Of a stretch of 64,000 nucleotides of DNA, positions 30,453 through 43,505 are shown in pieces. Position 1 is the first letter of the stretch. Every line of letters begins with the position of its first letter. Below the pieces are notes generated by a model that saw only the letters and a program-made list of their open reading frames with translations, made no database searches and was not told the origin of the DNA. The translations under genes were made by a program, and so were the position numbers. Source of the DNA: Escherichia phage F2; the sequence record NC_054913.1, one strand, 5' to 3'.

Positions 30453-31538
<1,086 letters not shown>

Positions 31539-31539
<1 letters not shown>

Positions 31540-32635: not shown

Positions 32636-33628
32636 ATGTTACCTGTCATCAGAAAACTTATTTCTCCAAAAGAACTGGCTGAGATTATTCCTTTGTCGGA
32701 AGCTTACGCATCACAAGTGGCTTCTCATCGCGAACAAGTTAATTCGATTATGAACGGTGAAGACCCACGCAAACTTATTGTTGTAGGTCCTTGTTCAATT
32801 CATGACCCTATTGCTGCTGTTGAATACGGCAAACGTCTGGCTGAACTTCAAACTCGTCTTCCTAATGTTCTGTTAGTGATGCGCGTTTATTTTGAAAAGC
32901 CTCGAACTACCGTAGGTTGGAAAGGTCTTGTAAATGATCCATATCTTGACGGAAGTTTTGATATGAACCACGGTCTTATAGTTGCACGAACATTGTGTCG
33001 TAAACTTCTACGTATGGGACTTCCATTAGCAACTGAAGTATTAGACCCATTCACGATTAAGTATCTTTCTGGTATTTTCTCATGGGTTGCTATTGGCGCC
33101 CGTACGACTGAAAGTCAGACACATCGTGAAATTGCTTCAGGTCTACCGATGTGCGTAGGCTTCAAGAACGCAACCAATGGTTCTATTAAAGTAGCTACAG
33201 ACGCGATGTATAGTGCCGCCTGGCCTCATCGGTATATGGGTATGGACGTCGATGGTACTGTAGGCATTGTTGAAGCTGAAGGTAATCAGAATACGCATAT
33301 CGTATTGCGTGGCGGGACCAACGGCCCGAACTATCATTCTTCTGATATTCAAGAAGCTTCTAACAAAGCAAGGGCAGTAGGTCTGAATCATTATGTAATG
33401 GTTGACTGTAGCCATGCAAACGCTGATGGTCATTATAGCAATCAAATTGGTATTGGTAAAAATTTAGCAGCTAATGATTTGGTCAAAGGAATTATGATAG
33501 AATCATTCCTACATGAAGGAAATCAAAAAATTTCTGATAATATGTCCTATGGCGTTTCCGTTACCGATGCGTGCATCAGTTGGGAACAAACTAAAGAGCT
33601 GTTAACTTATATTAATAAGGTTCAATAA
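32636..33628 (+). CDS. 3-deoxy-D-arabino-heptulosonate-7-phosphate (DAHP) synthase, class I alpha (AroG/AroF/AroH-like)
   Basis: 330 aa; alignable along its length with E. coli AroG: LIVVGPCSIHDP, MRVYFEKPRTTVGWKGL.NDP, AIGARTTESQ.HRE.ASGL, VGFKN.T.G.IKVA.DA, D.SHAN and E.GNQ motifs. Confidence 0.9.
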   Translation: MLPVIRKLISPKELAEIIPLSEAYASQVASHREQVNSIMNGEDPRKLIVVGPCSIHDPIAAVEYGKRLAELQTRLPNVLLVMRVYFEKPRTTVGWKGLVNDPYLDGSFDMNHGLIVARTLCRKLLRMGLPLATEVLDPFTIKYLSGIFSWVAIGARTTESQTHREIASGLPMCVGFKNATNGSIKVATDAMYSAAWPHRYMGMDVDGTVGIVEAEGNQNTHIVLRGGTNGPNYHSSDIQEASNKARAVGLNHYVMVDCSHANADGHYSNQIGIGKNLAANDLVKGIMIESFLHEGNQKISDNMSYGVSVTDACISWEQTKELLTYINKVQ

Positions 33629-34904: not shown

Positions 34905-35021
34905 AACTATATGAAGAGAACACTCTTCTAAGCGGTAGCCTACAACTGAGAGACTTGTCGAAAGAAGGTGAAATTCAGACGAACGTGGCTACTAAATATT
35001 ATCTCGAATTGAGAATTTAAA

Positions 35022-35270
35022 ATGATTAAACAATTACAACACGCTCTTGAACTGCAACGAAACGCATGGAATAACGGTCACGAAAACTACGGTGCGTCAA
35101 TTGATGTTGAAGCCGAAGCACTGGAAATCCTGCGATATTTCAAACATCTGAATCCTGCTCAGGCTACTCTGGCTTCTGAACTGGAAGCTAAAGATGAATT
35201 GAAATATGCTAAGCCTCTGGCTTCTGCAGCACGCAAAGCAGTTCGTCATTTTGTTATTACCCTGAAGTAA
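35022..35270 (+). CDS. rIII: rIII lysis inhibition accessory protein
   Basis: 82 aa, same length as T4 RIII; position between 31 and 30. Confidence 0.85.
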   Translation: MIKQLQHALELQRNAWNNGHENYGASIDVEAEALEILRYFKHLNPAQATLASELEAKDELKYAKPLASAARKAVRHFVITLK

Positions 35271-35292
35271 GTTAAATCGAGGAGCCGTCGAA

Positions 35293-35484
35293 TTGTCTGA
35301 TTATCGATTTGCGAATCGGTATGTTTTAGAAGTACCGCCCCGACAATTTTACGGTGTACCTCTTGAATGTTACTATCATGCGTCAGAAAAGTGTTATCTG
35401 TGTAAGTCTTGGTGGTATGATGACGAGGTTTATGGTTATCCTGTCGTTAAATATCCAAAACCTATGTTCCCCTTGAGGGCTTGA
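35293..35484 (+). CDS. hypothetical protein
   Basis: 63-aa ORF with RBS GAGGAG. Confidence 0.4.
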   Translation: MSDYRFANRYVLEVPPRQFYGVPLECYYHASEKCYLCKSWWYDDEVYGYPVVKYPKPMFPLRA

Positions 35485-35532
35485 GCAGGCCATGTCAATA
35501 AGTCCTGCATTTTCATTTAAAGAGAATTTATA

Positions 35533-35712
35533 ATGGCAAAACAAGCTAAAGCAAAGAAAGCAGTTGAAAAGAAAGTTGATGGTACCTCTAAACGCGCTGG
35601 ATACAAGCGTGGGTCGAACTCTCGTATTAATCAAACAGTTGAGAAGATCATGCGCAGAGCACGTGCAGTTCTTCGAGATGATGCTTCTCGTTTTGGAAAG
35701 GTTGTTGCATAA
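35533..35712 (+). CDS. small basic protein (59 aa)
   Basis: ORF below track cutoff; Lys/Arg-rich; followed immediately by a strong terminator. Confidence 0.35.
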   Translation: MAKQAKAKKAVEKKVDGTSKRAGYKRGSNSRINQTVEKIMRRARAVLRDDASRFGKVVA

Positions 35713-35717
35713 TTTTA

Positions 35718-35740
35718 GGGAGACTTCGGTCTCCCTTTTG
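35718..35740 (+). terminator. intrinsic terminator
   Basis: GGGAGAC-TTCG-GTCTCCC followed by TTTTG. Confidence 0.65.
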
Positions 35741-35772
35741 TGCGTTTAGGGCAGAAAAAGTTTAAAAAAGAT

Positions 35773-35801
35773 GTTTACTCTCCTGTAGGATGTGTTACTA
35801 T
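35773..35801 (+). promoter_or_regulatory. early promoter
   Basis: GTTTAC at 35773-35778, TACTAT at 35796-35801, conserved TATAGAC...CAA leader. Confidence 0.55.
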
Positions 35802-35842
35802 AGACTTGTACCACCTAATCAATAAAACAATCGGAGAATAAA

Positions 35843-36211
35843 ATGAAAATCAATCTGAACTCATACATCAAATGTAAAGACCACGACGGTTATAAAGCTA
35901 TCGAAATTAAAGAATTCCAGTGGATGTTATACAAAGAGCAATTTGAGTTCGTAGGTTGTATGACCCCTGAAGGTCCTTCAGATGATTTCTCTTGGAAAAT
36001 TGTGTTAGCAAACTTTTTCACAGGTGACACATACGAATTAAAAACTATTATTACCGGTAAAATTCGTTCAGAAACATATGTTGACGAAGAAACTGGTTAC
36101 TCTGAAGATGTTACATGGTATCAAAATGGACGCATTACAGCAGATAACCTGATCGAAAAAATGAAAGCCAAAGGTGTTTTAAATTTAGACAATTGGATTA
36201 AAGTTGCATAA
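35843..36211 (+). CDS. hypothetical protein
   Basis: 122-aa ORF with RBS GGAGAA. Confidence 0.5.
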   Translation: MKINLNSYIKCKDHDGYKAIEIKEFQWMLYKEQFEFVGCMTPEGPSDDFSWKIVLANFFTGDTYELKTIITGKIRSETYVDEETGYSEDVTWYQNGRITADNLIEKMKAKGVLNLDNWIKVA

Positions 36212-36215
36212 AACA

Positions 36216-36244
36216 GTTTACTTTGGTACAGGTTATGTTATTAT
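36216..36244 (+). promoter_or_regulatory. early promoter
   Basis: GTTTAC at 36216-36221, TATTAT at 36239-36244. Confidence 0.55.
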
Positions 36245-36285
36245 AGACCTGTACCAACAAACAACTTAAACATCTGGAGAATAAA

Positions 36286-36651
36286 ATGAACTACACCAAC
36301 TTCGAACGCAAATATGTTTCTAACGGTATCGCTGGTTCTATCGATATGGTTTGTTTGTGGAAGCATAAAAATGGTTCAGTATGTGAAATTGAGCAGTGCA
36401 TGACTCCTAATTATGTTTATATGCGATTTGAAAATGGCATCACTGTTTCAATCACGATGGAAGGTTCCAACTTCAAAATTGCATTAGATGACGATTTCCG
36501 TCAACGTGATTTAGGTACTCATCCTTGCTGGAACGGTGTTAATCGTAAACTTCTGGTTAAAACTTGGATTCGTCATATCCTGAGTAACCGAGCTAAACCT
36601 GAACATCTCGAAGCAATCTTTGATGTAGTTCTTAACGAATTCGATATCTAA
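36286..36651 (+). CDS. hypothetical protein
   Basis: 121-aa ORF with RBS GGAGAA. Confidence 0.5.
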   Translation: MNYTNFERKYVSNGIAGSIDMVCLWKHKNGSVCEIEQCMTPNYVYMRFENGITVSITMEGSNFKIALDDDFRQRDLGTHPCWNGVNRKLLVKTWIRHILSNRAKPEHLEAIFDVVLNEFDI

Positions 36652-36658
36652 TTTAACT

Positions 36659-36674
36659 GGGAGCTTCGGCTCCC
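36659..36674 (+). other. GC hairpin without U-tract (possible RNA stability or processing element)
   Basis: GGGAGC-TTCG-GCTCCC directly upstream of the next RBS. Confidence 0.4.
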
Positions 36675-36686
36675 ACTGAGGAAATT

Positions 36687-37301
36687 ATGTTTAAAGTTAA
36701 TACTTTTTATAAAATGAATTTTAAAAATGGGGATATTACTCCACGCCTTAAAAACATGTTCTCATATGACCTTATCGAGCCTTTTGAAGTTTTAGAAGTT
36801 ACTGATGCCGGCTCGGTTTGTGAAATTAGAACTTCTGAAGGTAAAATTTATCAGGCAGGTGTTGGTAAATTCAGTAATTGTTTTACTTTAATATTCTCGA
36901 CCGATTTAGATGAGCATTTTATTGAATGTCCTAACCCTAAGGTCCACGAAGTTCCACATCAAGAAACTAAGAAAAATGGCCCGCACGAATATACGAAGGT
37001 TGAAACTCCTCACGGCGTGATGTGGCGTCATAACTCTCCTTTTGGAAGTAAAGGAACATTTGCTCAACCGTCTAAACCGTATGACGATGAAAAATACATC
37101 GTCGTCTTTTTATCTGAACAGGGTACTCAAGACAGTGGATGCCAACGTTCCGGTTTATTGAGTGAACTTGAAGCTCATAACCAAGCACGTGAATTCGTTG
37201 AGAAAAATCCTGGTTCTGAAGCTCTAGTCATGAAAGCAATTACTCAATATATCACTGCTCAACCTGTTGTTCATCCAGTAGAAATTAATTTCGTTAAGTA
37301 G
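36687..37301 (+). CDS. hypothetical protein
   Basis: 204-aa ORF with RBS GAGGAAA; no motif recognised. Confidence 0.5.
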   Translation: MFKVNTFYKMNFKNGDITPRLKNMFSYDLIEPFEVLEVTDAGSVCEIRTSEGKIYQAGVGKFSNCFTLIFSTDLDEHFIECPNPKVHEVPHQETKKNGPHEYTKVETPHGVMWRHNSPFGSKGTFAQPSKPYDDEKYIVVFLSEQGTQDSGCQRSGLLSELEAHNQAREFVEKNPGSEALVMKAITQYITAQPVVHPVEINFVK

Positions 37302-37331
37302 TTTACATCCAAGGACGGATTAGAGTATAAT
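37301..37331 (+). promoter_or_regulatory. early promoter
   Basis: GTTTAC at 37301-37306, TATAAT at 37326-37331. Confidence 0.55.
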
Positions 37332-37355
37332 GATTTCTTTAGTAAGTGGAAAAAT

Positions 37356-37553
37356 ATGAAATTTTTAATAGCACAAACAGTTCAATTAAAAGGTGTTGGA
37401 ATTCCTGGGGTGATTTTTAAAGTTCTCCCTGAATTTAAAACCGGCGCTGGAATTATCAATGAAGCGTATGCTGTTCAATGGGTTGATTGGACTTCTGACA
37501 TACGTATGGGTAAAGAGTTATCTCCTATTAAAGGGTTGAAACATGTTGAATAA
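37356..37553 (+). CDS. hypothetical protein
   Basis: 65-aa ORF. Confidence 0.4.
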   Translation: MKFLIAQTVQLKGVGIPGVIFKVLPEFKTGAGIINEAYAVQWVDWTSDIRMGKELSPIKGLKHVE

Positions 37554-37755
37554 ATTAATCCAGAAATTGTTTGGTACGGAAATGATCGAAGTTACTTATC
37601 GTGTAACAGACTGCTCGCCTATTCATCCACAGGATGAACCGTTTATCAAGACAATTAAAATGCTTAAAAATGACGGTGGTTTATCTATTGAAGACCGTCT
37701 GCCTAGTTACGGACATTGGGCTGATGTTGAAATTATAAGTGTTAAAGATGTCTGA
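37543..37755 (+). CDS. hypothetical protein
   Basis: 70-aa ORF, coupled. Confidence 0.4.
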   Translation: MLNKLIQKLFGTEMIEVTYRVTDCSPIHPQDEPFIKTIKMLKNDGGLSIEDRLPSYGHWADVEIISVKDV

Positions 37756-38206
37756 ATTAGAAATAAGAAGCAATTTCAAATGGCCGTCATGCGCATTAAG
37801 TAATTTCGCCCAATGGCCTTTTGTTATGGATGGTATTCAATTCGGAGGACTTGAAGGATTTCTCCAAGGATGTAAGGTGAAAAATGTTGAACAACAAAGA
37901 CGTATATTTGGGCTGTCAGGACTGGCCGCACAGCAAGCTGGAAGGTCTTATGCAAGAGCTCAGGACCATGGGACTCTCTTCTGGTTAGGAGTTCCATTTT
38001 CAAGATACTCTGAAGCATGGAAAGAATTATATACAAATGCATATTTTGAAGCAGCGATCCAAAACAAGGGGTTTCGCGACGCCTTACAAGCCTCTAAAGG
38101 AAAAATTTTGAAGCACAGCATGGCCAGCCACCTAACAAAAGATGATACAATATTAACTGAAGCTGAATTTATTGATGTGTTAAACCTATTAAGAGACTCT
38201 TTATGA
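37739..38206 (+). CDS. NADAR-domain (YbiA-like, DUF1768) protein
   Basis: 155 aa; SNFAQWPF matches the YbiA FSNFAAWP motif; size matches the NADAR domain. Confidence 0.65.
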   Translation: MLKMSELEIRSNFKWPSCALSNFAQWPFVMDGIQFGGLEGFLQGCKVKNVEQQRRIFGLSGLAAQQAGRSYARAQDHGTLFWLGVPFSRYSEAWKELYTNAYFEAAIQNKGFRDALQASKGKILKHSMASHLTKDDTILTEAEFIDVLNLLRDSL

Positions 38207-39018
38207 AGCCTACTATTTTGACTGATATTGATGGTGTATGTTTAAGCTGGCAATCTGGACTTCCTTATTTTGCCCAAAAATATAATCTTCCATTAGAACA
38301 TATTTTAAAAATGATTCAGGACGAAAAATTTATTTCTCCTGGTAAACTGTTCAATACCGACGATAACCTTGGTAAACAATTAATAGAAAAATATAATAGC
38401 TCTGATTTTATTCGTTACTTAGCGCCTTATTCGGATGCTCTTCGAGTTATCAATAAACTAAAAGAAGACTATAATTTTGTAGCCGTGACGGCGCTAGGTG
38501 ATTCAATTGATGCTCGATTGAATAGACAATTTAATTTGAATGCTTTGTTCCCAGGCGCTTTTTCTGAAGTAATGATGTGTGGTCATGATTCGTCAAAGGA
38601 ACAATTATTTGAACTAGCTAAAACAAAATATAACGTGATTTGTTACGTTGACGATTTAGCTCATCACTGTGACCATGCGGCAGAAATTCTTAATGTACCG
38701 ATTTATTGGTTGGCTCGTGGTGAACGTGATGATATTCCTCGCACTGCACAACGTGTACACACGTGGGATGATATTGAATCTCGTTTGGTTTCACCCGAGC
38801 ATAATTCAGATTCAGATCGTGAAGACCTTTTAAAACGATTGGCGGATTTGCTTAAAGAATCTGGTGCAACAAGTCCAGGTGCATGGCCTAATCAAATTGG
38901 CGCTCCGTCGAATCCGTATACCTGGCGAAACCAAGGACCGACTGATATGCAGCCATGGTGGACGATTCAAAACTTTCCTTTAGATTCGTCCAAATGGACT
39001 TGGTCTACAAATTGTTAA
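38203..39018 (+). CDS. putative HAD-superfamily hydrolase (30.2-like)
   Basis: 271 aa; N-terminal LTDIDGV resembles HAD motif I (DxDG[TV]); coupled to the NADAR ORF. Confidence 0.5.
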   Translation: MKPTILTDIDGVCLSWQSGLPYFAQKYNLPLEHILKMIQDEKFISPGKLFNTDDNLGKQLIEKYNSSDFIRYLAPYSDALRVINKLKEDYNFVAVTALGDSIDARLNRQFNLNALFPGAFSEVMMCGHDSSKEQLFELAKTKYNVICYVDDLAHHCDHAAEILNVPIYWLARGERDDIPRTAQRVHTWDDIESRLVSPEHNSDSDREDLLKRLADLLKESGATSPGAWPNQIGAPSNPYTWRNQGPTDMQPWWTIQNFPLDSSKWTWSTNC

Positions 39019-39027
39019 GGGTTAATT

Positions 39028-39297
39028 ATGTTTGTAGTTCATGATATTACAGATGGCAAAAACACCACACGTGACTACGGTCACGTTAACATGTTCTTTC
39101 GAGACTGGCCATTGTTTCGTTCAGTAAAAGACGCAGAAATATTTAAAGAGTGTGTTGAACAAGGGTTCATCTACATTTCAGAATACTATGTTGAAGGACT
39201 CGGTAAATGGATTACCACTTATCAGAAAACGCTGAAATCGCTTCTAGATGAAGTGGCTTATAATAGAACCGTAACCAAAATCGAGGACATCAAATGA
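39028..39297 (+). CDS. hypothetical protein
   Basis: 89-aa ORF. Confidence 0.45.
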   Translation: MFVVHDITDGKNTTRDYGHVNMFFRDWPLFRSVKDAEIFKECVEQGFIYISEYYVEGLGKWITTYQKTLKSLLDEVAYNRTVTKIEDIK

Positions 39298-40787
39298 TTT
39301 TAGATATTTTAAACCAAATAGCTGCGATCGGTTCTACTAAAACAAAACAAGAAATCCTTAAGAAAAATAAGGACAACAAATTACTTGAACGTGTGTACCG
39401 TTTAACATATGCACGTGGTATCCAGTATTATATTAAGAAATGGCCAGGACCTGGTGAAAGGTCTCAAGCGTATGGACTTCTTGAATTAGATGACATGTTG
39501 GATTTTATTGAGTTCACATTAGCCACTCGTAAACTCACTGGTAATGCTGCAATTAAAGAGCTCATGGGTTATATCGCTGATGGTAAACCTGATGATGTAG
39601 AAGTCCTTCGTCGCGTAATGATGCGCGACCTTGAAGTAGGTGCTTCAGTGTCTATCGCGAATAAGGTGTGGCCTGGACTTATTCAATTGCAACCACAGAT
39701 GTTAGCATCTGCATATGATGAGAAATTGATTACTAAAAATATTAAATGGCCCGCATTTGCCCAATTAAAAGCAGATGGTGCTCGTTGTTTCGCTGAAGTC
39801 CGCGATGGTGGTGTTCAATTCTTTTCTCGTGCCGGTAACGAATACCATGGTCTTACTCTATTAGCGGATGAACTAATGGAAATGACTAAAGAAGCTCGTG
39901 AAAGACACCCTAATGGGGTTTTAATCGACGGTGAATTAGTTTATCATTCATTCGATATTAAAAAGGCTGTGAGCTCAGGAAATGATCTGTCGTTCTTATT
40001 TGGTGATAATGAAGAATCCGAAGAAGTACAAGTTGCAGACCGTAGCACTTCAAATGGTTTAGCAAATAAATCTCTTCAAGGGACTATTTCTCCTAAAGAA
40101 GCGGAAGGTATGGTTCTTCAAGCCTGGGACTATGTTCCTTTAGATGAAGTCTATTCTGATGGCAAAATTAAAGGTCAGAAATACGATGTTCGTTTTGCTG
40201 CTCTTGAAAATATGGCTGAAGGCTTTAAACGAATTGAACCTATCGAAAACCAGTTAGTTCGTAATCTTGACGAAGCTAAAGTGGTTTATAAAAAATATGT
40301 TGACCAAGGTCTTGAAGGTATTATCCTTAAAAACCGTGATTCATACTGGGAAAACAAACGCTCTAAGAACCTAATTAAATTTAAAGAAGTTATTGATATC
40401 GCTTTAGAAGTTGTAGGATACTATGAACACTCTAAAGACCCTAACAAATTAGGTGGTGTCGAACTCGTATCACGTTGTCGTCGTATTACAACCGATTGTG
40501 GTTCAGGGTTTAAAGATACAACTCATAAAACAGTTGATGGTGTAAAGGTTCTTATTCCTTTAGATGAGCGTCATGATTTGGACCGTGAACGATTAATGAC
40601 CGAAGCTCGTGAAGGTAAATTGATTGGACGTATTGCTGATTGTGAATGCAATGGTTGGGTTCATTCTAAAGGACGTGAAGGCACTGTAGGTATTTTCCTT
40701 CCAATTATTAAAGGGTTCCGTTTTGATAAAACAGAAGCGGATTCGTTTGAAGACGTATTTGGACCGTGGTCCCAGACAGGTTTATAA
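39294..40787 (+). CDS. 30: ATP-dependent DNA ligase
   Basis: 497 aa; adenylation motif KADGAR (FAQLKADGARCFAEVR), EGIILK, CECNGW. Confidence 0.95.
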   Translation: MILDILNQIAAIGSTKTKQEILKKNKDNKLLERVYRLTYARGIQYYIKKWPGPGERSQAYGLLELDDMLDFIEFTLATRKLTGNAAIKELMGYIADGKPDDVEVLRRVMMRDLEVGASVSIANKVWPGLIQLQPQMLASAYDEKLITKNIKWPAFAQLKADGARCFAEVRDGGVQFFSRAGNEYHGLTLLADELMEMTKEARERHPNGVLIDGELVYHSFDIKKAVSSGNDLSFLFGDNEESEEVQVADRSTSNGLANKSLQGTISPKEAEGMVLQAWDYVPLDEVYSDGKIKGQKYDVRFAALENMAEGFKRIEPIENQLVRNLDEAKVVYKKYVDQGLEGIILKNRDSYWENKRSKNLIKFKEVIDIALEVVGYYEHSKDPNKLGGVELVSRCRRITTDCGSGFKDTTHKTVDGVKVLIPLDERHDLDRERLMTEAREGKLIGRIADCECNGWVHSKGREGTVGIFLPIIKGFRFDKTEADSFEDVFGPWSQTGL

Positions 40788-40975
40788 TGAAAGCTTATTT
40801 AGAAACAGTTATTGTAGCTAAGAAGGATGGTGGAGATGTTTCCACCTCTTGCTCTCAGATTATATTAGATTTTCCTAATGAAAATTCGTATCGGGTTTTC
40901 GTAGATAACGTTAATGGGTACGAAAAAGGCCCTAATTTTGAAGTTTATCGTACTTTGCTCCCGATTGTGGATTAA
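40787..40975 (+). CDS. hypothetical protein
   Basis: In-frame ATG at 40787 overlapping the ligase stop (TAATG); 62 aa. Confidence 0.4.
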   Translation: MKAYLETVIVAKKDGGDVSTSCSQIILDFPNENSYRVFVDNVNGYEKGPNFEVYRTLLPIVD

Positions 40976-40996
40976 GAGCCTTCGGGCTCTTTTTGG
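40976..40996 (+). terminator. intrinsic terminator
   Basis: GAGCC-TTCG-GGCTC followed by TTTTTGG. Confidence 0.6.
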
Positions 40997-41030
40997 CATA
41001 AATATAAATTATTACTAAAAGGAAAACACT

Positions 41031-43118
41031 ATGTCTGAACAATTAAATGAAGTGTTTGAATCTGAAGGCAGTCTTCCTGTCGTCAATTTGAACCCTAAAG
41101 CTAAAGTTCCACAAGTCTGGAAAATTGGTGATATCGATACAAACATCGTAGTTCGCTTATTCTCTTACCTTTCTGAAGGCGATGCTGTAAAACAAGTTAA
41201 ACTTGGCGACAAATACGCTCATGTTGTTATTATGAGTCTGTCTGAAAAGGGTAATCTCGCTGAATTGAAAAATGGCCTTGGTCCTGCTCCTATTGATGCA
41301 ATCAACACCATTTTCAATACGGTATATGAACAGGTTAAAGCTCTTCGTATGGATGCAGTTCTGTTCCGGTTCCCTACCAAGAAATTGAAAGGACGTGGAC
41401 AACAGCTTCAAACTCTTCTTGCTCGTTTAGTTTCTACTAAAACTGGCGGTCGTTTTAAAGTATTGTCAGCAATGTATCAATTCACAGGTAAACACACCTA
41501 TGTGATGATGGTTCGTAAAAATGCCAACATTGAAGATATTAAAGGCATCCCTAACATTAACACAGAGTTGTACACGAAAGTAGATTCTGATGTTGGCGAA
41601 GTTTATGTGAGTAAAAAGACTGGTGAAATGGTCACCAAAGAAGCGGCTATCGCTGGTTCTATTGCTGCTGTAGAAGAAAAACGTAAAGATAAGCCTGTTA
41701 TTGCTCGTACTAAAATTTCTCGTCGTGCTATTGCAGCAAGTCAATCTTTAGAAGCTGACCGCCAAGAAGGTGAGTTATTCCAGAAATACGAAAATTCTGC
41801 TAAAGAAGTTAGTGGCCCAGCTACAGCCGAATTACTTCCTGAAGCATATGAAATCGTACTAGCCCAAGCATCGTCCACAGCAAAAGGCACTTTAGTTGCT
41901 GATATCGAAAATAAGATTTATAATCGTATTGATGAATCCTTTAGATTTGCTGATGAAGTTTCTTATGGTAGTGTTATTAAGCCAACTTTAGAAAAGTTTG
42001 CTAAGAAAATTAAAACTGAAAAAACAACATCTGTTAAAGCATTAGCTGCTTTTGTTGAAGCTGCAAATGAAATTGCAGACTCTATTAAAGACGAATGGTT
42101 TGAAGATTTTAGACGTGATAATTTCCAACTGGCCGACGACGTTTTAGCTGAAGTATCTGAAAAAACTTGGAAACAACGTAAATCAGCGTTCTTGTCTAAT
42201 GTGATGTATACTTATGCACGAGAATCGGCTAGAGGCACCTTTAATATAACAATGAATCGGGACCCTAAACAATACTCTGTTGCTGAAAAACGAGCTATTC
42301 GTGAATATGCCTCTTCTGCGTATACCGATATCAATAATATGTTGTTAGGTCGTTATAAACCAGATTTTTACGATGTTGCAGATGAAGATGAAGTTAAACG
42401 CGCTATTGATGGTCTTGATTCGGCGTTTTTAAATGGAGACCGTTTACCTGAAGGACTAACGTTATATAGAGCCCAGTCTATCAGAATGCCTATTTACGAA
42501 GCAATGGTTAAAAATAAGGTATTCTACTTCAGAAACTATGTTTCCACTTCACTAGCTCCTATTATTTTCGGTGGGTTTAAAGAGAACGTTGCCCTTGGAC
42601 TTGCTCCTGAAGAAGTTCGCAAAGAGCTTAACATTGACAATAATGACGAAGGTGTTACTATTTCTCCTAGTCAAGTAAGAACAGCTATGCATGCACCAGA
42701 CCAAATCCGTGTTAACGTTGGATGGGCTATTGATGGCGCCCATAAAGTTAACGTGATTTATCCTGGACAGTTGAGTAATCACCCTAATGAGCAAGAAATT
42801 ATTTTGCCTAGAGGCATTCTCTTGCAGATAAATAAAATTACGGATGCGTCATCTGACACTGGTGCAGGTTTAGAATCCAACCTTAAATTTATTCAAGCTG
42901 AAGTCATGTCCTCAGACCAGTTGGACGAAGTTGTCATTTACGATGGTGATGTTCTCATGGAAACAGGCGAGGTGGTTGCTATGACTGGTGAAATCGAATC
43001 AGATGAGCCGATATCGTTCTCCTCATTTGTAGAAAAAACTAGTGCTCCTAAAGGATTGAAATTGTTAGCATCTTTAATGGATTTAGAATCAGTTCCGTTT
43101 AAATTTGTCCAAGGATAG
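41031..43118 (+). CDS. alt: Alt ADP-ribosyltransferase (packaged head protein)
   Basis: 695 aa (T4 Alt ~682); position adjacent to gene 30; C-terminal region has ART-like R...S...E spacing (YTDINNMLLGRY...LYRAQS). Confidence 0.8.
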   Translation: MSEQLNEVFESEGSLPVVNLNPKAKVPQVWKIGDIDTNIVVRLFSYLSEGDAVKQVKLGDKYAHVVIMSLSEKGNLAELKNGLGPAPIDAINTIFNTVYEQVKALRMDAVLFRFPTKKLKGRGQQLQTLLARLVSTKTGGRFKVLSAMYQFTGKHTYVMMVRKNANIEDIKGIPNINTELYTKVDSDVGEVYVSKKTGEMVTKEAAIAGSIAAVEEKRKDKPVIARTKISRRAIAASQSLEADRQEGELFQKYENSAKEVSGPATAELLPEAYEIVLAQASSTAKGTLVADIENKIYNRIDESFRFADEVSYGSVIKPTLEKFAKKIKTEKTTSVKALAAFVEAANEIADSIKDEWFEDFRRDNFQLADDVLAEVSEKTWKQRKSAFLSNVMYTYARESARGTFNITMNRDPKQYSVAEKRAIREYASSAYTDINNMLLGRYKPDFYDVADEDEVKRAIDGLDSAFLNGDRLPEGLTLYRAQSIRMPIYEAMVKNKVFYFRNYVSTSLAPIIFGGFKENVALGLAPEEVRKELNIDNNDEGVTISPSQVRTAMHAPDQIRVNVGWAIDGAHKVNVIYPGQLSNHPNEQEIILPRGILLQINKITDASSDTGAGLESNLKFIQAEVMSSDQLDEVVIYDGDVLMETGEVVAMTGEIESDEPISFSSFVEKTSAPKGLKLLASLMDLESVPFKFVQG

Positions 43119-43147
43119 TTTACAAACACATGGATGTGTGATACTAT
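43118..43147 (+). promoter_or_regulatory. early promoter
   Basis: GTTTAC at 43118-43123, TACTAT at 43142-43147. Confidence 0.55.
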
Positions 43148-43176
43148 CATCCCATCAACAACACGAGGAAAACGTT

Positions 43177-43470
43177 ATGAAATCTATGCTTCGCTTTAAT
43201 GGTCAAGAACTAGTAGTTGAAGATGTTATCCCAGCGGATGATGCTTTTAACGAAGCTGTGATTGACGAATTGAATCGAGTATTCCCAGGTGCATTCCATA
43301 TTGCTATGGAACCTCTTAAAAACTTTCGTGACCCTGAACACACTGATCAAATTTTTGTCGGTGTAGTGACGGGTCATTTAGAAACAGAGGTACCAATGGT
43401 CGTATTAGTTAAATACTCTAAAGATGATACTCCATTCCGAGCACCAGCATTCCTTTCATTCCGTAAATAA
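43177..43470 (+). CDS. hypothetical protein
   Basis: In-frame ATG at 43177 after the promoter and GAGGAAAA RBS (97 aa); the track ORF starts upstream inside alt. Confidence 0.45.
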   Translation: MKSMLRFNGQELVVEDVIPADDAFNEAVIDELNRVFPGAFHIAMEPLKNFRDPEHTDQIFVGVVTGHLETEVPMVVLVKYSKDDTPFRAPAFLSFRK

Positions 43471-43477
43471 ACCCCTA

Positions 43478-43505
43478 AAGGGAGACGTTGTCTCCCTTTT
43501 TCTTT
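43478..43505. terminator. bidirectional terminator between convergent genes
   Basis: AAAGGGAGAC...GTCTCCCTTTTT hairpin flanked by A/T runs on both sides. Confidence 0.55.

What the first reader, a model, noticed from the sequence alone, without database searches (positions are those of the whole stretch)
37739..39018. NADAR (YbiA-like) protein coupled to a HAD-like hydrolase in the gene-30-proximal accessory cluster
ORF 37739-38206 has the SNFAQWPF signature of the NADAR/YbiA (DUF1768) family. It is translationally coupled to a 271-aa ORF whose N-terminus carries a HAD motif I-like DIDGV. NADAR domains are linked to NAD/ADP-ribose metabolism, and some members reverse guanine ADP-ribosylation of DNA by DarT-type toxins. 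This phage also encodes the Alt ADP-ribosyltransferase nearby. The pair could be an anti-defence or ADP-ribose-processing module (inference).
Basis: partly seen in the sequence, partly recalled or inferred. Interest (0 to 1): 0.6.

Follow-up and report, generated by a model that had tools for sequence, protein, structure and literature searches.

The report
Known anti-DarT enzyme AdfN plus neighbour
The first gene is an intact copy of phage T4 gene 30.3 (AdfN), an already characterised enzyme that strips ADP-ribose off phage DNA to defeat the bacterial DarTG1 defence; the gene after it is T4 gene 30.2, a predicted phosphatase of unknown role that published transposon data show is not needed for that counter-defence.

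Summary
The window comes from an RB69-like T-even phage. ORF 37748-38206 is gene 30.3: it starts at this ATG, not the GTG at 37739, and matches Pfam Phage_30_3 at 4e-69. It is 96% identical to T4 gp30.3. It has a NADAR fold, and its only confident PDB matches are YbiA and two NADARs. E36, K43 and H123 are conserved.

T4 gp30.3 is already published as AdfN, a DNA ADP-ribosylglycohydrolase that is necessary and sufficient against DarTG1 (Nat Commun 2025;16:1598). RB69 carries a frameshifted allele; this window carries the intact one.

The idea that the two genes form a module is not supported:
- The 4-nt overlap occurs in only 15 of 64 T4-like loci.
- In Aeromonas phage 44RR2.8t the two genes lie 64 kb apart.
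- 30.2 always sits just upstream of the DNA ligase gene (64 of 64 loci).
- In the T4 transposon screen on DarTG1, 30.3 drops by log2FC -7.25 and 30.2 by only -0.12.

Verdict: a correct identification of something already known. Only the function of gp30.2 remains open.

The parts
37748..38206 (+). adfN (T4 gene 30.3 orthologue): 152-aa NADAR-fold DNA ADP-ribosylglycohydrolase, intact full-length allele
   Evidence: PF08010 at 4.2e-69. 146/152 residues identical to T4 gp30.3 and the same length. E36, K43 and H123 are invariant in 33 homologues. AF2 pLDDT 94; Foldseek top three are YbiA 2b3w, PnNADAR 8bau and G. lovleyi NADAR 8bat. The family profile hits YbiA at E=0.002.
38203..39018 (+). T4 gene 30.2 orthologue: 271-aa HAD-superfamily protein. 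The catalytic core with C1 cap is residues 1-195 (38203-38787). Residues 196-271 form a disordered Trp/Pro-rich tail.
38203..38206 (+). ATGA overlap of the 30.3 stop and the 30.2 start
   Evidence: Read directly in the sequence. T4 has the same 4-nt overlap. It is present in 15 of 64 T4-like loci.
37543..37755 (+). gene 30.4 orthologue, overlapping the adfN start by 8 nt (ATGTCTGA)
   Evidence: phrog_2042 at 1.3e-34. Sequence read. In T4, insertions in 30.4 are mildly depleted on DarTG1 (log2FC -1.79, adjusted p 0.014), most simply a polar effect on adfN.
37302..37331 (+). sigma-70-like promoter match (TTTACA-18-TATAAT, 11/12) upstream of the 30.5>30.4>30.3>30.2>30.1>30 chain
   Evidence: Best-scoring site in 35000-43500. 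This is a consensus match only; the number of sites in the region is not above the shuffled expectation.
39028..39297 (+). gene 30.1 (DUF3045), lying between 30.2 and the ligase gene
   Evidence: PF11243 at 1.4e-26.
39294..40787 (+). gene 30, ATP-dependent DNA ligase; the gene with which 30.2 is consistently linked
   Evidence: PF01068 at 2.9e-26. 99% identical to the RB69 ligase. It lies downstream of 30.2 in 64 of 64 T4-like loci.

Best explanation
These are two separate genes of the T-even early cluster upstream of the DNA ligase gene. They are packed head-to-tail like their neighbours.

(1) 37748-38206 encodes AdfN (gp30.3), a minimal NADAR enzyme.
- When a host DarT1 toxin ADP-ribosylates guanines in replicating phage DNA, AdfN hydrolyses the N-glycosidic guanine-ADP-ribose bond. 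Replication can then continue. In effect it is an orphan copy of the DarG1 antitoxin carried by the phage.
- The catalytic residues are E36, K43 and the phage-type His (H123) in the last strand.
- The C-terminal helix that RB69 has lost through a frameshift is present here. This phage is therefore predicted to resist DarTG1.
- Shown: orthology, fold and residues for this window; enzymology and genetics for the T4 orthologue, in the literature.
- Inferred: that this allele is active.

(2) 38203-39018 encodes gp30.2, a HAD phosphohydrolase that is predicted to depend on Mg2+.
- Its DxD motif marks it as a phosphoryl-transfer enzyme rather than a dehalogenase.
- Its closed C1 cap points to a small phosphorylated substrate, most probably a nucleotide, as in 5'(3')-deoxyribonucleotidases.
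- It works independently of AdfN.
- Shown: fold, motifs, synteny and dispensability.
- Inferred: the substrate class.
For: AdfN:
- PF08010 at 4e-69 and 96% identity to T4 gp30.3.
- Invariant E36, K43 and H123.
- The family profile hits YbiA at E=0.002.
- AF2 pLDDT 94, with YbiA, PnNADAR and G. lovleyi NADAR as the only confident Foldseek PDB matches.
- Published work on T4 gp30.3: it removes ADP-ribose from DarT1-modified DNA; E36A and K43A abolish rescue; deletion sensitises T4 and T2 to DarTG1; the RB69 allele is truncated by a T insertion at nt 411 (PMC11257639 and PMC11825919; PMC11125620).
- An independent transposon screen gives 30.3 log2FC -7.25 on DarTG1.
- The window lacks the RB69 insertion. 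That insertion occurs only in the two RB69 records among 50,697 phage records.
- There are 37 synonymous against 6 non-synonymous codon differences from T4, indicating purifying selection.

gp30.2:
- The four HAD motifs are invariant or nearly so, and the cap is rich in invariant aromatic and polar residues (W16, F43, F50, Y64, N65, S67, Y72).
- The only PDB sequence match is mouse cdN 2jao, and it is weak (E 0.18-0.23). In that alignment W16 sits 8 residues after the nucleophile, where cdN has a Phe. From memory, the equivalent Phe in mdN stacks on the base.
- NT5C, HAD_2 and Hydrolase are the only Pfam families that recur across members.

Independence of the two genes: synteny; 30.2 log2FC -0.12 on DarTG1.
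Against: - No assay was done on this allele. Six residues differ from T4 AdfN, none at known catalytic positions.
- AdfN of T4 works fully only during T-even infection, for an unknown reason, so the mechanism is incomplete.
- For gp30.2 no Pfam or NCBIfam model reaches its cut-off.
- T4 30.2 mutants show no phenotype in any condition read (reference library, RnlAB, DarTG1, M9). This gives no positive clue to function.
Confidence: 0.8

Rival explanations
1. The pair is a functional module. gp30.2 would either dispose of a phosphorylated product downstream of AdfN (ADP-ribose or its breakdown products), or be the unidentified T-even factor that AdfN needs for full activity.
For: - The ATGA overlap is conserved in T4, RB69 and JS98-type coliphages.
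- Both genes are near-universal in T4-like phages: 1437 and 1509 of 50,697 records, with similar genus counts.
- The authors of PMC11825919 conclude that T-even phages likely encode another factor required for full AdfN activity.
- HAD 5'-nucleotidases accompany ADP-ribosylglycohydrolases in some bacterial systems (PMC9503650).
Against: - T4 30.2 transposon mutants (71 sites) are not depleted on DarTG1 (log2FC -0.12, p=0.61), while 30.3 mutants are lost.
- The genes are unlinked in 30 of 64 T4-like loci and 64 kb apart in 44RR2.8t.
- RB69 keeps an intact 30.2 next to a broken adfN.
- No 30.3-30.2 fusion protein appears among about 200 database relatives.
- Overlapping starts and stops are the rule along the whole cluster.
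Confidence: 0.06
2. gp30.2 is a nucleic-acid end-healing 3'-phosphatase that prepares nicks for the adjacent DNA ligase.
For: - 30.2 lies directly upstream of gene 30 in 64 of 64 T4-like loci. In 25 the gap is at most 150 nt, and some show a 4-nt overlap, as in 44RR2.8t.
Against: - gp30.2 has an approximately 80-residue helical C1 cap between motifs I and II. From established knowledge of the HAD superfamily, such caps enclose small substrates, whereas end-processing HADs such as Pnkp are capless.
- The phage already encodes PseT/Pnkp with a HAD_PNKP domain at 30640-31539.
- 30.2 is non-essential although the ligase is essential.
- Distant relatives of 30.2 are not next to a ligase gene.
Confidence: 0.1
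3. The main in vivo substrate of AdfN in this phage is not DarT1-modified DNA. It could be guanine-ADP-ribosylated RNA, soluble ADP-ribose derivatives, or products of the phage's own transferases Alt, ModA and ModB.
For: - T4 NADAR also removes G-ADPr from RNA in vitro (PMC12945103).
- An earlier comparative-genomics study proposed soluble ADPr derivatives as targets and noted early co-expression with the ARTs (PMC9503650).
- Alt is encoded 2.8 kb downstream.
Against: - The genetic phenotype is specific and very strong on DarTG1.
- 30.3 is dispensable on plain K-12.
- From general knowledge, Alt modifies protein arginines, not guanine.
- T4 NADAR was listed among the NADARs that act on G-ADPr but not on C-ADPr.
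Confidence: 0.1

Closest known systems
T4 gp30.3 = AdfN (anti-DarT factor NADAR), Johannesman, Carlson and LeRoux, Nat Commun 2025;16:1598
   Same: Orthologue. 146/152 residues identical, same length, same genomic position, same 8-nt and 4-nt overlaps with 30.4 and 30.2, and the same E36, K43 and last-strand His.
   Different: Six substitutions (for example R11K, R74H, P89E, G128H). It sits in an RB69-type (Mosigvirus) genome. RB69 itself carries a frameshifted, inactive allele.
DarG1 / DarT-associated NADAR antitoxins (BC4488 family; E. coli C7 NADAR, G. lovleyi NADAR 8bat)
   Same: NADAR fold and guanine-ADP-ribose glycohydrolase chemistry, used to undo DarT1.
   Different: AdfN lacks the N-terminal extension. 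It has His where DarG1 has Asp. It is not encoded next to a DarT. The T4 enzyme does not act as an antitoxin in uninfected cells.
E. coli YbiA (2b3w), founding NADAR/DUF1768 member
   Same: Best structural match (Foldseek E 1e-4, TM 0.67) and a shared LSNFA..PF..E..Q..K motif.
   Different: Only 19% identity. YbiA has Glu in the last strand and is a housekeeping riboflavin-pathway N-glycosidase. The window protein does not hit Pfam PF08719.
T4 gp30.2 (hypothetical protein NP_049815)
   Same: Orthologue of ORF2. 73.5% identity over the core and the same position between 30.3 and 30.1.
   Different: The C-terminal tail cannot be aligned. The window tail lacks the G-[IV]-EYL-x-N-[RQ]-PT motif found in T4 and many other homologues.
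5'(3')-deoxyribonucleotidases, NT5C family (cdN/mdN; 2jao, 2i7d, 1q92; S. epidermidis 3bwv)
   Same: HAD core with a helical C1 cap, a D-x-D-G-V motif I, an aromatic residue 8 positions after the nucleophile, and the best target-normalised structural matches.
   Different: Sequence similarity is marginal (E about 0.2). Pfam NT5C is hit below threshold by only 5 of 31 family members and not by the window protein. No substrate has been tested.
T4 PseT (Pnkp) 3'-phosphatase domain
   Different: Pnkp is capless and acts on polynucleotide ends. gp30.2 has a cap. The window already encodes PseT at 30640-31539.

Membership tests
AdfN / phage gp30.3 NADAR family (Pfam PF08010) | Significant match to the Phage_30_3 profile and orthology to T4 gp30.3 | tested here: met
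   E=4.2e-69, 231 bits against a cut-off of 36. 96% identity, same length and same synteny.
AdfN / phage gp30.3 NADAR family (Pfam PF08010) | Catalytic Glu36 and Lys43, plus His replacing the last-strand Glu/Asp | tested here: met
   E36, K43 and H123 are invariant in 33 homologues. H123 follows the last strand, E120-122, in the model. The definition is taken from PMC11125620 and PMC11825919.
AdfN / phage gp30.3 NADAR family (Pfam PF08010) | Intact C-terminal helix (lost in the inactive RB69 allele) | tested here: met
   The window lacks the T insertion and ends ...EAEFIDVLNLLRDSL as in T4. Helix 138-151 is modelled with high confidence.
AdfN / phage gp30.3 NADAR family (Pfam PF08010) | Removes ADP-ribose from DarT1-modified DNA and confers DarTG1 resistance | not testable with these tools
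   Shown for the T4 orthologue only.
NADAR superfamily (YbiA/DUF1768, Pfam PF08719) | NADAR alpha+beta fold | tested here: met
   The Foldseek PDB top three are the NADAR structures 2b3w, 8bau and 8bat (probability 1.00, 0.99, 0.97). The next hit has probability 0.07.
NADAR superfamily (YbiA/DUF1768, Pfam PF08719) | Significant hit to the Pfam NADAR model | tested here: not met
   No PF08719 hit at E<=1 for the window protein. The relation is seen only with the family profile against YbiA (E=0.002). One relative, P0180, carries both PF08010 and PF08719.
HAD superfamily | Motif I DxDx[TV] (nucleophile and acid/base Asp) | tested here: met
   D8-I-D10-G-V12. D8, D10 and G11 are invariant.
HAD superfamily | Motifs II (Ser/Thr), III (Lys/Arg) and IV (acidic pair) | tested here: met
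   T96 is conserved in at least 90% of members, K132 is invariant, and D150-D151 are conserved in at least 90%.
HAD superfamily | Rossmannoid HAD fold | tested here: met
HAD superfamily | Curated profile hit above threshold | tested here: not met
   HAD_2 scores 16 bits against a cut-off of 23.8. NCBIfam shows only TIGR01428 at E=0.09. The family is too divergent for the existing models.
NT5C 5'(3')-deoxyribonucleotidase family (PF06941) | Profile match and nucleotide-binding cap | tested here: inconclusive
   5 of 31 family members hit NT5C below threshold; the window protein does not. phmmer against 2jao gives E=0.18. The structural match is good but no better than to other C1-cap HADs.

The most novel reading that the evidence does not exclude
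gp30.2 may be an independent auxiliary or counter-defence enzyme. On this reading it is a capped HAD nucleotidase, kept next to the ligase gene across Straboviridae, that destroys a specific phosphorylated small molecule. That molecule might be a host- or defence-made nucleotide, or an ADP-ribose- or AMP-derived product. The enzyme would then matter only on hosts that were not among the conditions read in the T4 transposon data. A weaker variant is that gp30.2 or gp30.4 contributes to the unexplained dependence of AdfN on T-even infection.
Probability: 0.12. Interest if true: 0.55.

Novelty: already known. Interest (0 to 1): 0.15.

Why it matters
The main claim, a phage NADAR that reverses DarT DNA ADP-ribosylation, is correct. 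It was published in 2023-2025 for the T4 orthologue, so nothing new follows from it.

Two small points have practical value:
- RB69 is the textbook DarTG1-sensitive T-even phage because of a private frameshift. This RB69-like phage carries the intact allele, so sensitivity to DarTG1 cannot be extrapolated from RB69 to its relatives.
- gp30.2 is one of the most widely conserved T4-like genes still without a function. It is a catalytically intact HAD enzyme tied to the ligase gene, not to AdfN. That tells whoever studies it where not to look.

Tried and rejected
- Pfam, NCBIfam and PADLOC scans of the single proteins gave no NADAR, HAD or defence-family hit above threshold.
- phmmer of ORF1 against PDB sequences found nothing. 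A family profile was needed.
- I considered that the high AdfN identity to T4 (96%, against 49-74% for its neighbours) reflects recent horizontal exchange. I rejected this because there are 37 synonymous against 6 non-synonymous codon differences.
- I considered that the odd C-terminal tail of gp30.2 comes from a frameshift relative to T4. The other two frames are full of stops and carry no trace of the T4 tail motif.
- I looked for fusion partners of the 30.2 domain in 1.84 billion representative proteins. The few longer proteins have no recognisable extra domain.
- I looked at the neighbours of distant 30.2 relatives in 13 viral contigs. There is no recurrent partner; MazG lies next door in L073 (Pfam), and the near-identical neighbouring ORF in L077 was not scanned.
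- Exact-pattern scans of IMG/VR for the RB69 frameshift were uninformative, with 0 and 1 hits. A BLAST search of the phage collection replaced them.
- Literature searches for gp30.2 found nothing.

Full report
**What is there**

The region lies in a T4-type phage genome. A 2.1-kb query around the finding is 97-99% identical to the Escherichia phages JQD51, ZQ3, JS09, ATK47 and ST0. The proteins are 98-99% identical to those of RB69, a Mosigvirus.

The gene order on the + strand is:
- 30.5-like, 37356-37553
- 30.4, 37543-37755
- 30.3, 37748-38206
- 30.2, 38203-39018
- 30.1 (DUF3045), 39028-39297
- gene 30 (DNA ligase), 39294-40787
- alt.1
- Alt, 41031-43118

These assignments come, and the order matches T4.

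The real start is the ATG at 37748, which overlaps the 30.4 stop as ATGTCTGA. It gives a 152-aa protein of the same length and N-terminus as T4 gp30.3. The ATGA overlap with ORF2 is real.

**ORF1 is AdfN**

The sequence and structure evidence:
- It matches Pfam Phage_30_3 at 4e-69 and is 146/152 identical to T4 gp30.3.
- It does not hit the Pfam NADAR model directly.
- A profile of 33 homologues hits E. coli YbiA at E=0.002 over the LSNFA...E..Q..K motif.
- The AlphaFold model has pLDDT 94. Its three best PDB matches are the NADAR structures YbiA 2b3w, Phytophthora NADAR 8bau and G. lovleyi NADAR 8bat. Nothing else is credible.
- E36, K43 and H123 are invariant.

This protein is not an open question:
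- T4 gp30.3 de-ADP-ribosylates guanine-modified DNA in vitro.
- Johannesman et al. named it AdfN. They showed that it is necessary and sufficient for T-even phages to escape DarTG1, and that E36A and K43A kill it.
- They also showed that RB69 is sensitive because a T insertion at nt 411 truncates the last helix.
- An independent T4 transposon screen gives 30.3 log2FC -7.25 on DarTG1 (sheet identity confirmed).

The window is otherwise nearly RB69, but it lacks that insertion. The insertion occurs only in the two RB69 records among 50,697 phage records. The window therefore carries an intact and presumably active adfN.

AdfN is far more conserved than its neighbours. It is 96% identical to T4, against 49-74% for the flanking proteins. 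With 37 synonymous and 6 non-synonymous codon differences, this reflects purifying selection rather than recent transfer.

**ORF2 is gp30.2, a divergent HAD enzyme**

- It belongs to phrog_420, of unknown function. It reaches no curated HAD threshold.
- In 31 homologues from Escherichia, Klebsiella, Acinetobacter, Aeromonas, Shewanella and other hosts, all four HAD motifs are invariant or nearly so. These are D8-x-D10-G-V, T96, K132 and D150-D151.
- Many aromatic and polar residues in the insert between motifs I and II are also invariant.
- The model is confident for residues 1-195. It shows a Rossmannoid core with a helical C1 cap. Residues 196-271 form a disordered Trp/Pro-rich tail that varies between phages or is absent.
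- The DxD motif marks a phosphoryl-transfer enzyme rather than a dehalogenase (established HAD knowledge).

The nearest relatives by combined sequence and structure are the 5'(3')-deoxyribonucleotidases:
- mouse cdN 2jao is the only PDB sequence hit, at E about 0.2;
- 3bwv has the best target coverage and identity;
- W16 aligns with a cdN Phe 8 residues after the nucleophile.

**Are the two genes a module?**

The evidence says no.
- Overlapping starts and stops link the whole chain: 30.5/30.4 by 11 nt, 30.4/30.3 by 8 nt, 30.3/30.2 by 4 nt and 30.1/30 by 4 nt. The ATGA is therefore not specific to this pair.
- In 64 T4-like IMG/VR loci that hold upstream sequence:
  - 30.3 abuts 30.2 in 15. These are T4-, RB69- and JS98-type phages plus one distant contig.
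  - In 19 it lies roughly 30-1,230 nt upstream of 30.2.
  - In 30 it is absent from the 1.4-4.0 kb of upstream sequence held (at least 3.3 kb in all but one locus).
- In Aeromonas phage 44RR2.8t, 30.3 sits beside vs.6 and a tRNA cluster at 65.5 kb. There 30.2 overlaps the start of the ligase gene at 129.8 kb.
- The ligase gene lies downstream of 30.2 in 64 of 64 loci. In 25 the gap is at most 150 nt, and in 36 it is 151-700 nt, about the size of one small 30.1-type gene. The deeper linkage is therefore 30.2-(30.1)-30.
- RB69 keeps a perfect 30.2 beside its broken adfN.
- No 30.3-30.2 fusion appears among the database relatives.
- Most directly, in the HIDEN-SEQ screen of T4 on a DarTG1 host:
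  - 30.2 (71 insertion sites) is unchanged, with log2FC -0.12 and p=0.61;
  - 30.3 is eliminated;
  - 30.2 is also non-essential and neutral in the reference library, the RnlAB comparison and minimal medium.

The final Nat Commun version does state that T-even phages probably encode another factor needed for full AdfN activity. The transposon data argue that gp30.2 is not that factor. The mild depletion of 30.4 (-1.79) and 30.5 (-3.0, not significant), both upstream of adfN, is most simply polarity on adfN. That fits the promoter-like site at 37302-37331, just upstream of 30.5 in the window. This last point is inference.

**What gp30.2 does**

I commit to a Mg2+-dependent phosphomonoesterase that acts on a small phosphorylated substrate, most likely a nucleotide, and that works independently of AdfN.

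The alternative of a DNA-end 3'-phosphatase helping the ligase is attractive because of the synteny, but several points count against it:
- the cap argues for a small substrate;
- the phage already encodes PseT/Pnkp at 30640-31539;
- 30.2 is dispensable;
- distant relatives of 30.2 are not linked to a ligase.

**Verdict**

That function is already established for the T4 orthologue. The proposed NADAR-HAD module is not supported, and no link to Alt was found beyond ordinary T4 gene order. The novelty is nil for AdfN. The only open item is the function of gp30.2, for which the present data narrow the options but do not decide.

Noticed in passing
window 38150-38165 compared with L079 (RB69 NC_004928, record 130250-130290): RB69's inactivating T insertion in adfN is absent from the window. 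Among 50,697 phage records it is found only in the two RB69 records. RB69's DarTG1 sensitivity therefore looks like a private lesion of that isolate, not a trait of its clade.
   Followed up: yes
window 37748-38206 compared with T4 (L080): AdfN is 96% identical between this Mosigvirus and T4, while the flanking proteins are 49-74% identical. With 37 synonymous and 6 non-synonymous codon differences, this indicates unusually strong purifying selection.
   Followed up: yes
window 36693-37540: This stretch has no counterpart in RB69. It contains a 204-aa ORF (36687-37301, no Pfam hit) and a 30.5-like ORF (37356-37553) that matches T4 but not RB69. The best sigma-70-like site of the region (37302-37331) lies between them.
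   Followed up: partly
T4 genes 30.4 and 30.5 (window 37543-37755 and 37356-37553): In the published T4 transposon screen on DarTG1, insertions in 30.4 (log2FC -1.79, adjusted p 0.014) and 30.5 (-3.0, not significant) are also depleted, while 30.6 is not. This is probably polarity on adfN. A contribution of gp30.4 to AdfN function is not excluded.
   Followed up: no
window 37748-38206, other frames: T4's annotated alternative-frame internal gene 30.3' has no counterpart here. No + strand ORF of at least 40 aa lies inside adfN in another frame, which suggests 30.3' is not a real conserved gene.
   Followed up: partly
database relatives P0107, P0113, P0116, P0151; loci L004, L012: Many T4-like phages carry truncated or fused 30.3 alleles (86-126 aa, or fused to 30.7/30.8-type domains). 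This suggests recurrent loss of AdfN in nature.
   Followed up: no
window 38788-39015 (gp30.2 residues 196-271): The C-terminal tail is disordered, with 6 Trp and 8 Pro in 76 residues. It cannot be aligned with T4's tail, which is also rich in aromatic residues and Pro. It lacks the G-[IV]-EYL-x-N-[RQ]-PT motif that ends many homologues. It may be a variable docking peptide.
   Followed up: partly
window 32636-33628: A 330-aa DAHP/KDO8P-synthase-family protein (PF00793, 5e-75) lies next to the dCMP deaminase gene. This is an unusual metabolic gene for a T-even phage. It may relate to the arabinosyl-hydroxymethylcytosine DNA modification reported for RB69 (the link to arabinosylation is from memory and untested).
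   Followed up: no
L073 4694-5002; L077 4694-5002: In L073, a marine-type viral contig, a distant relative of gp30.2 (about 30% identity) sits immediately upstream of a MazG nucleotide pyrophosphohydrolase (Pfam). L077 has a near-identical 102-aa ORF at the same position, which was not scanned. This is a weak hint of a nucleotide substrate.
   Followed up: partly
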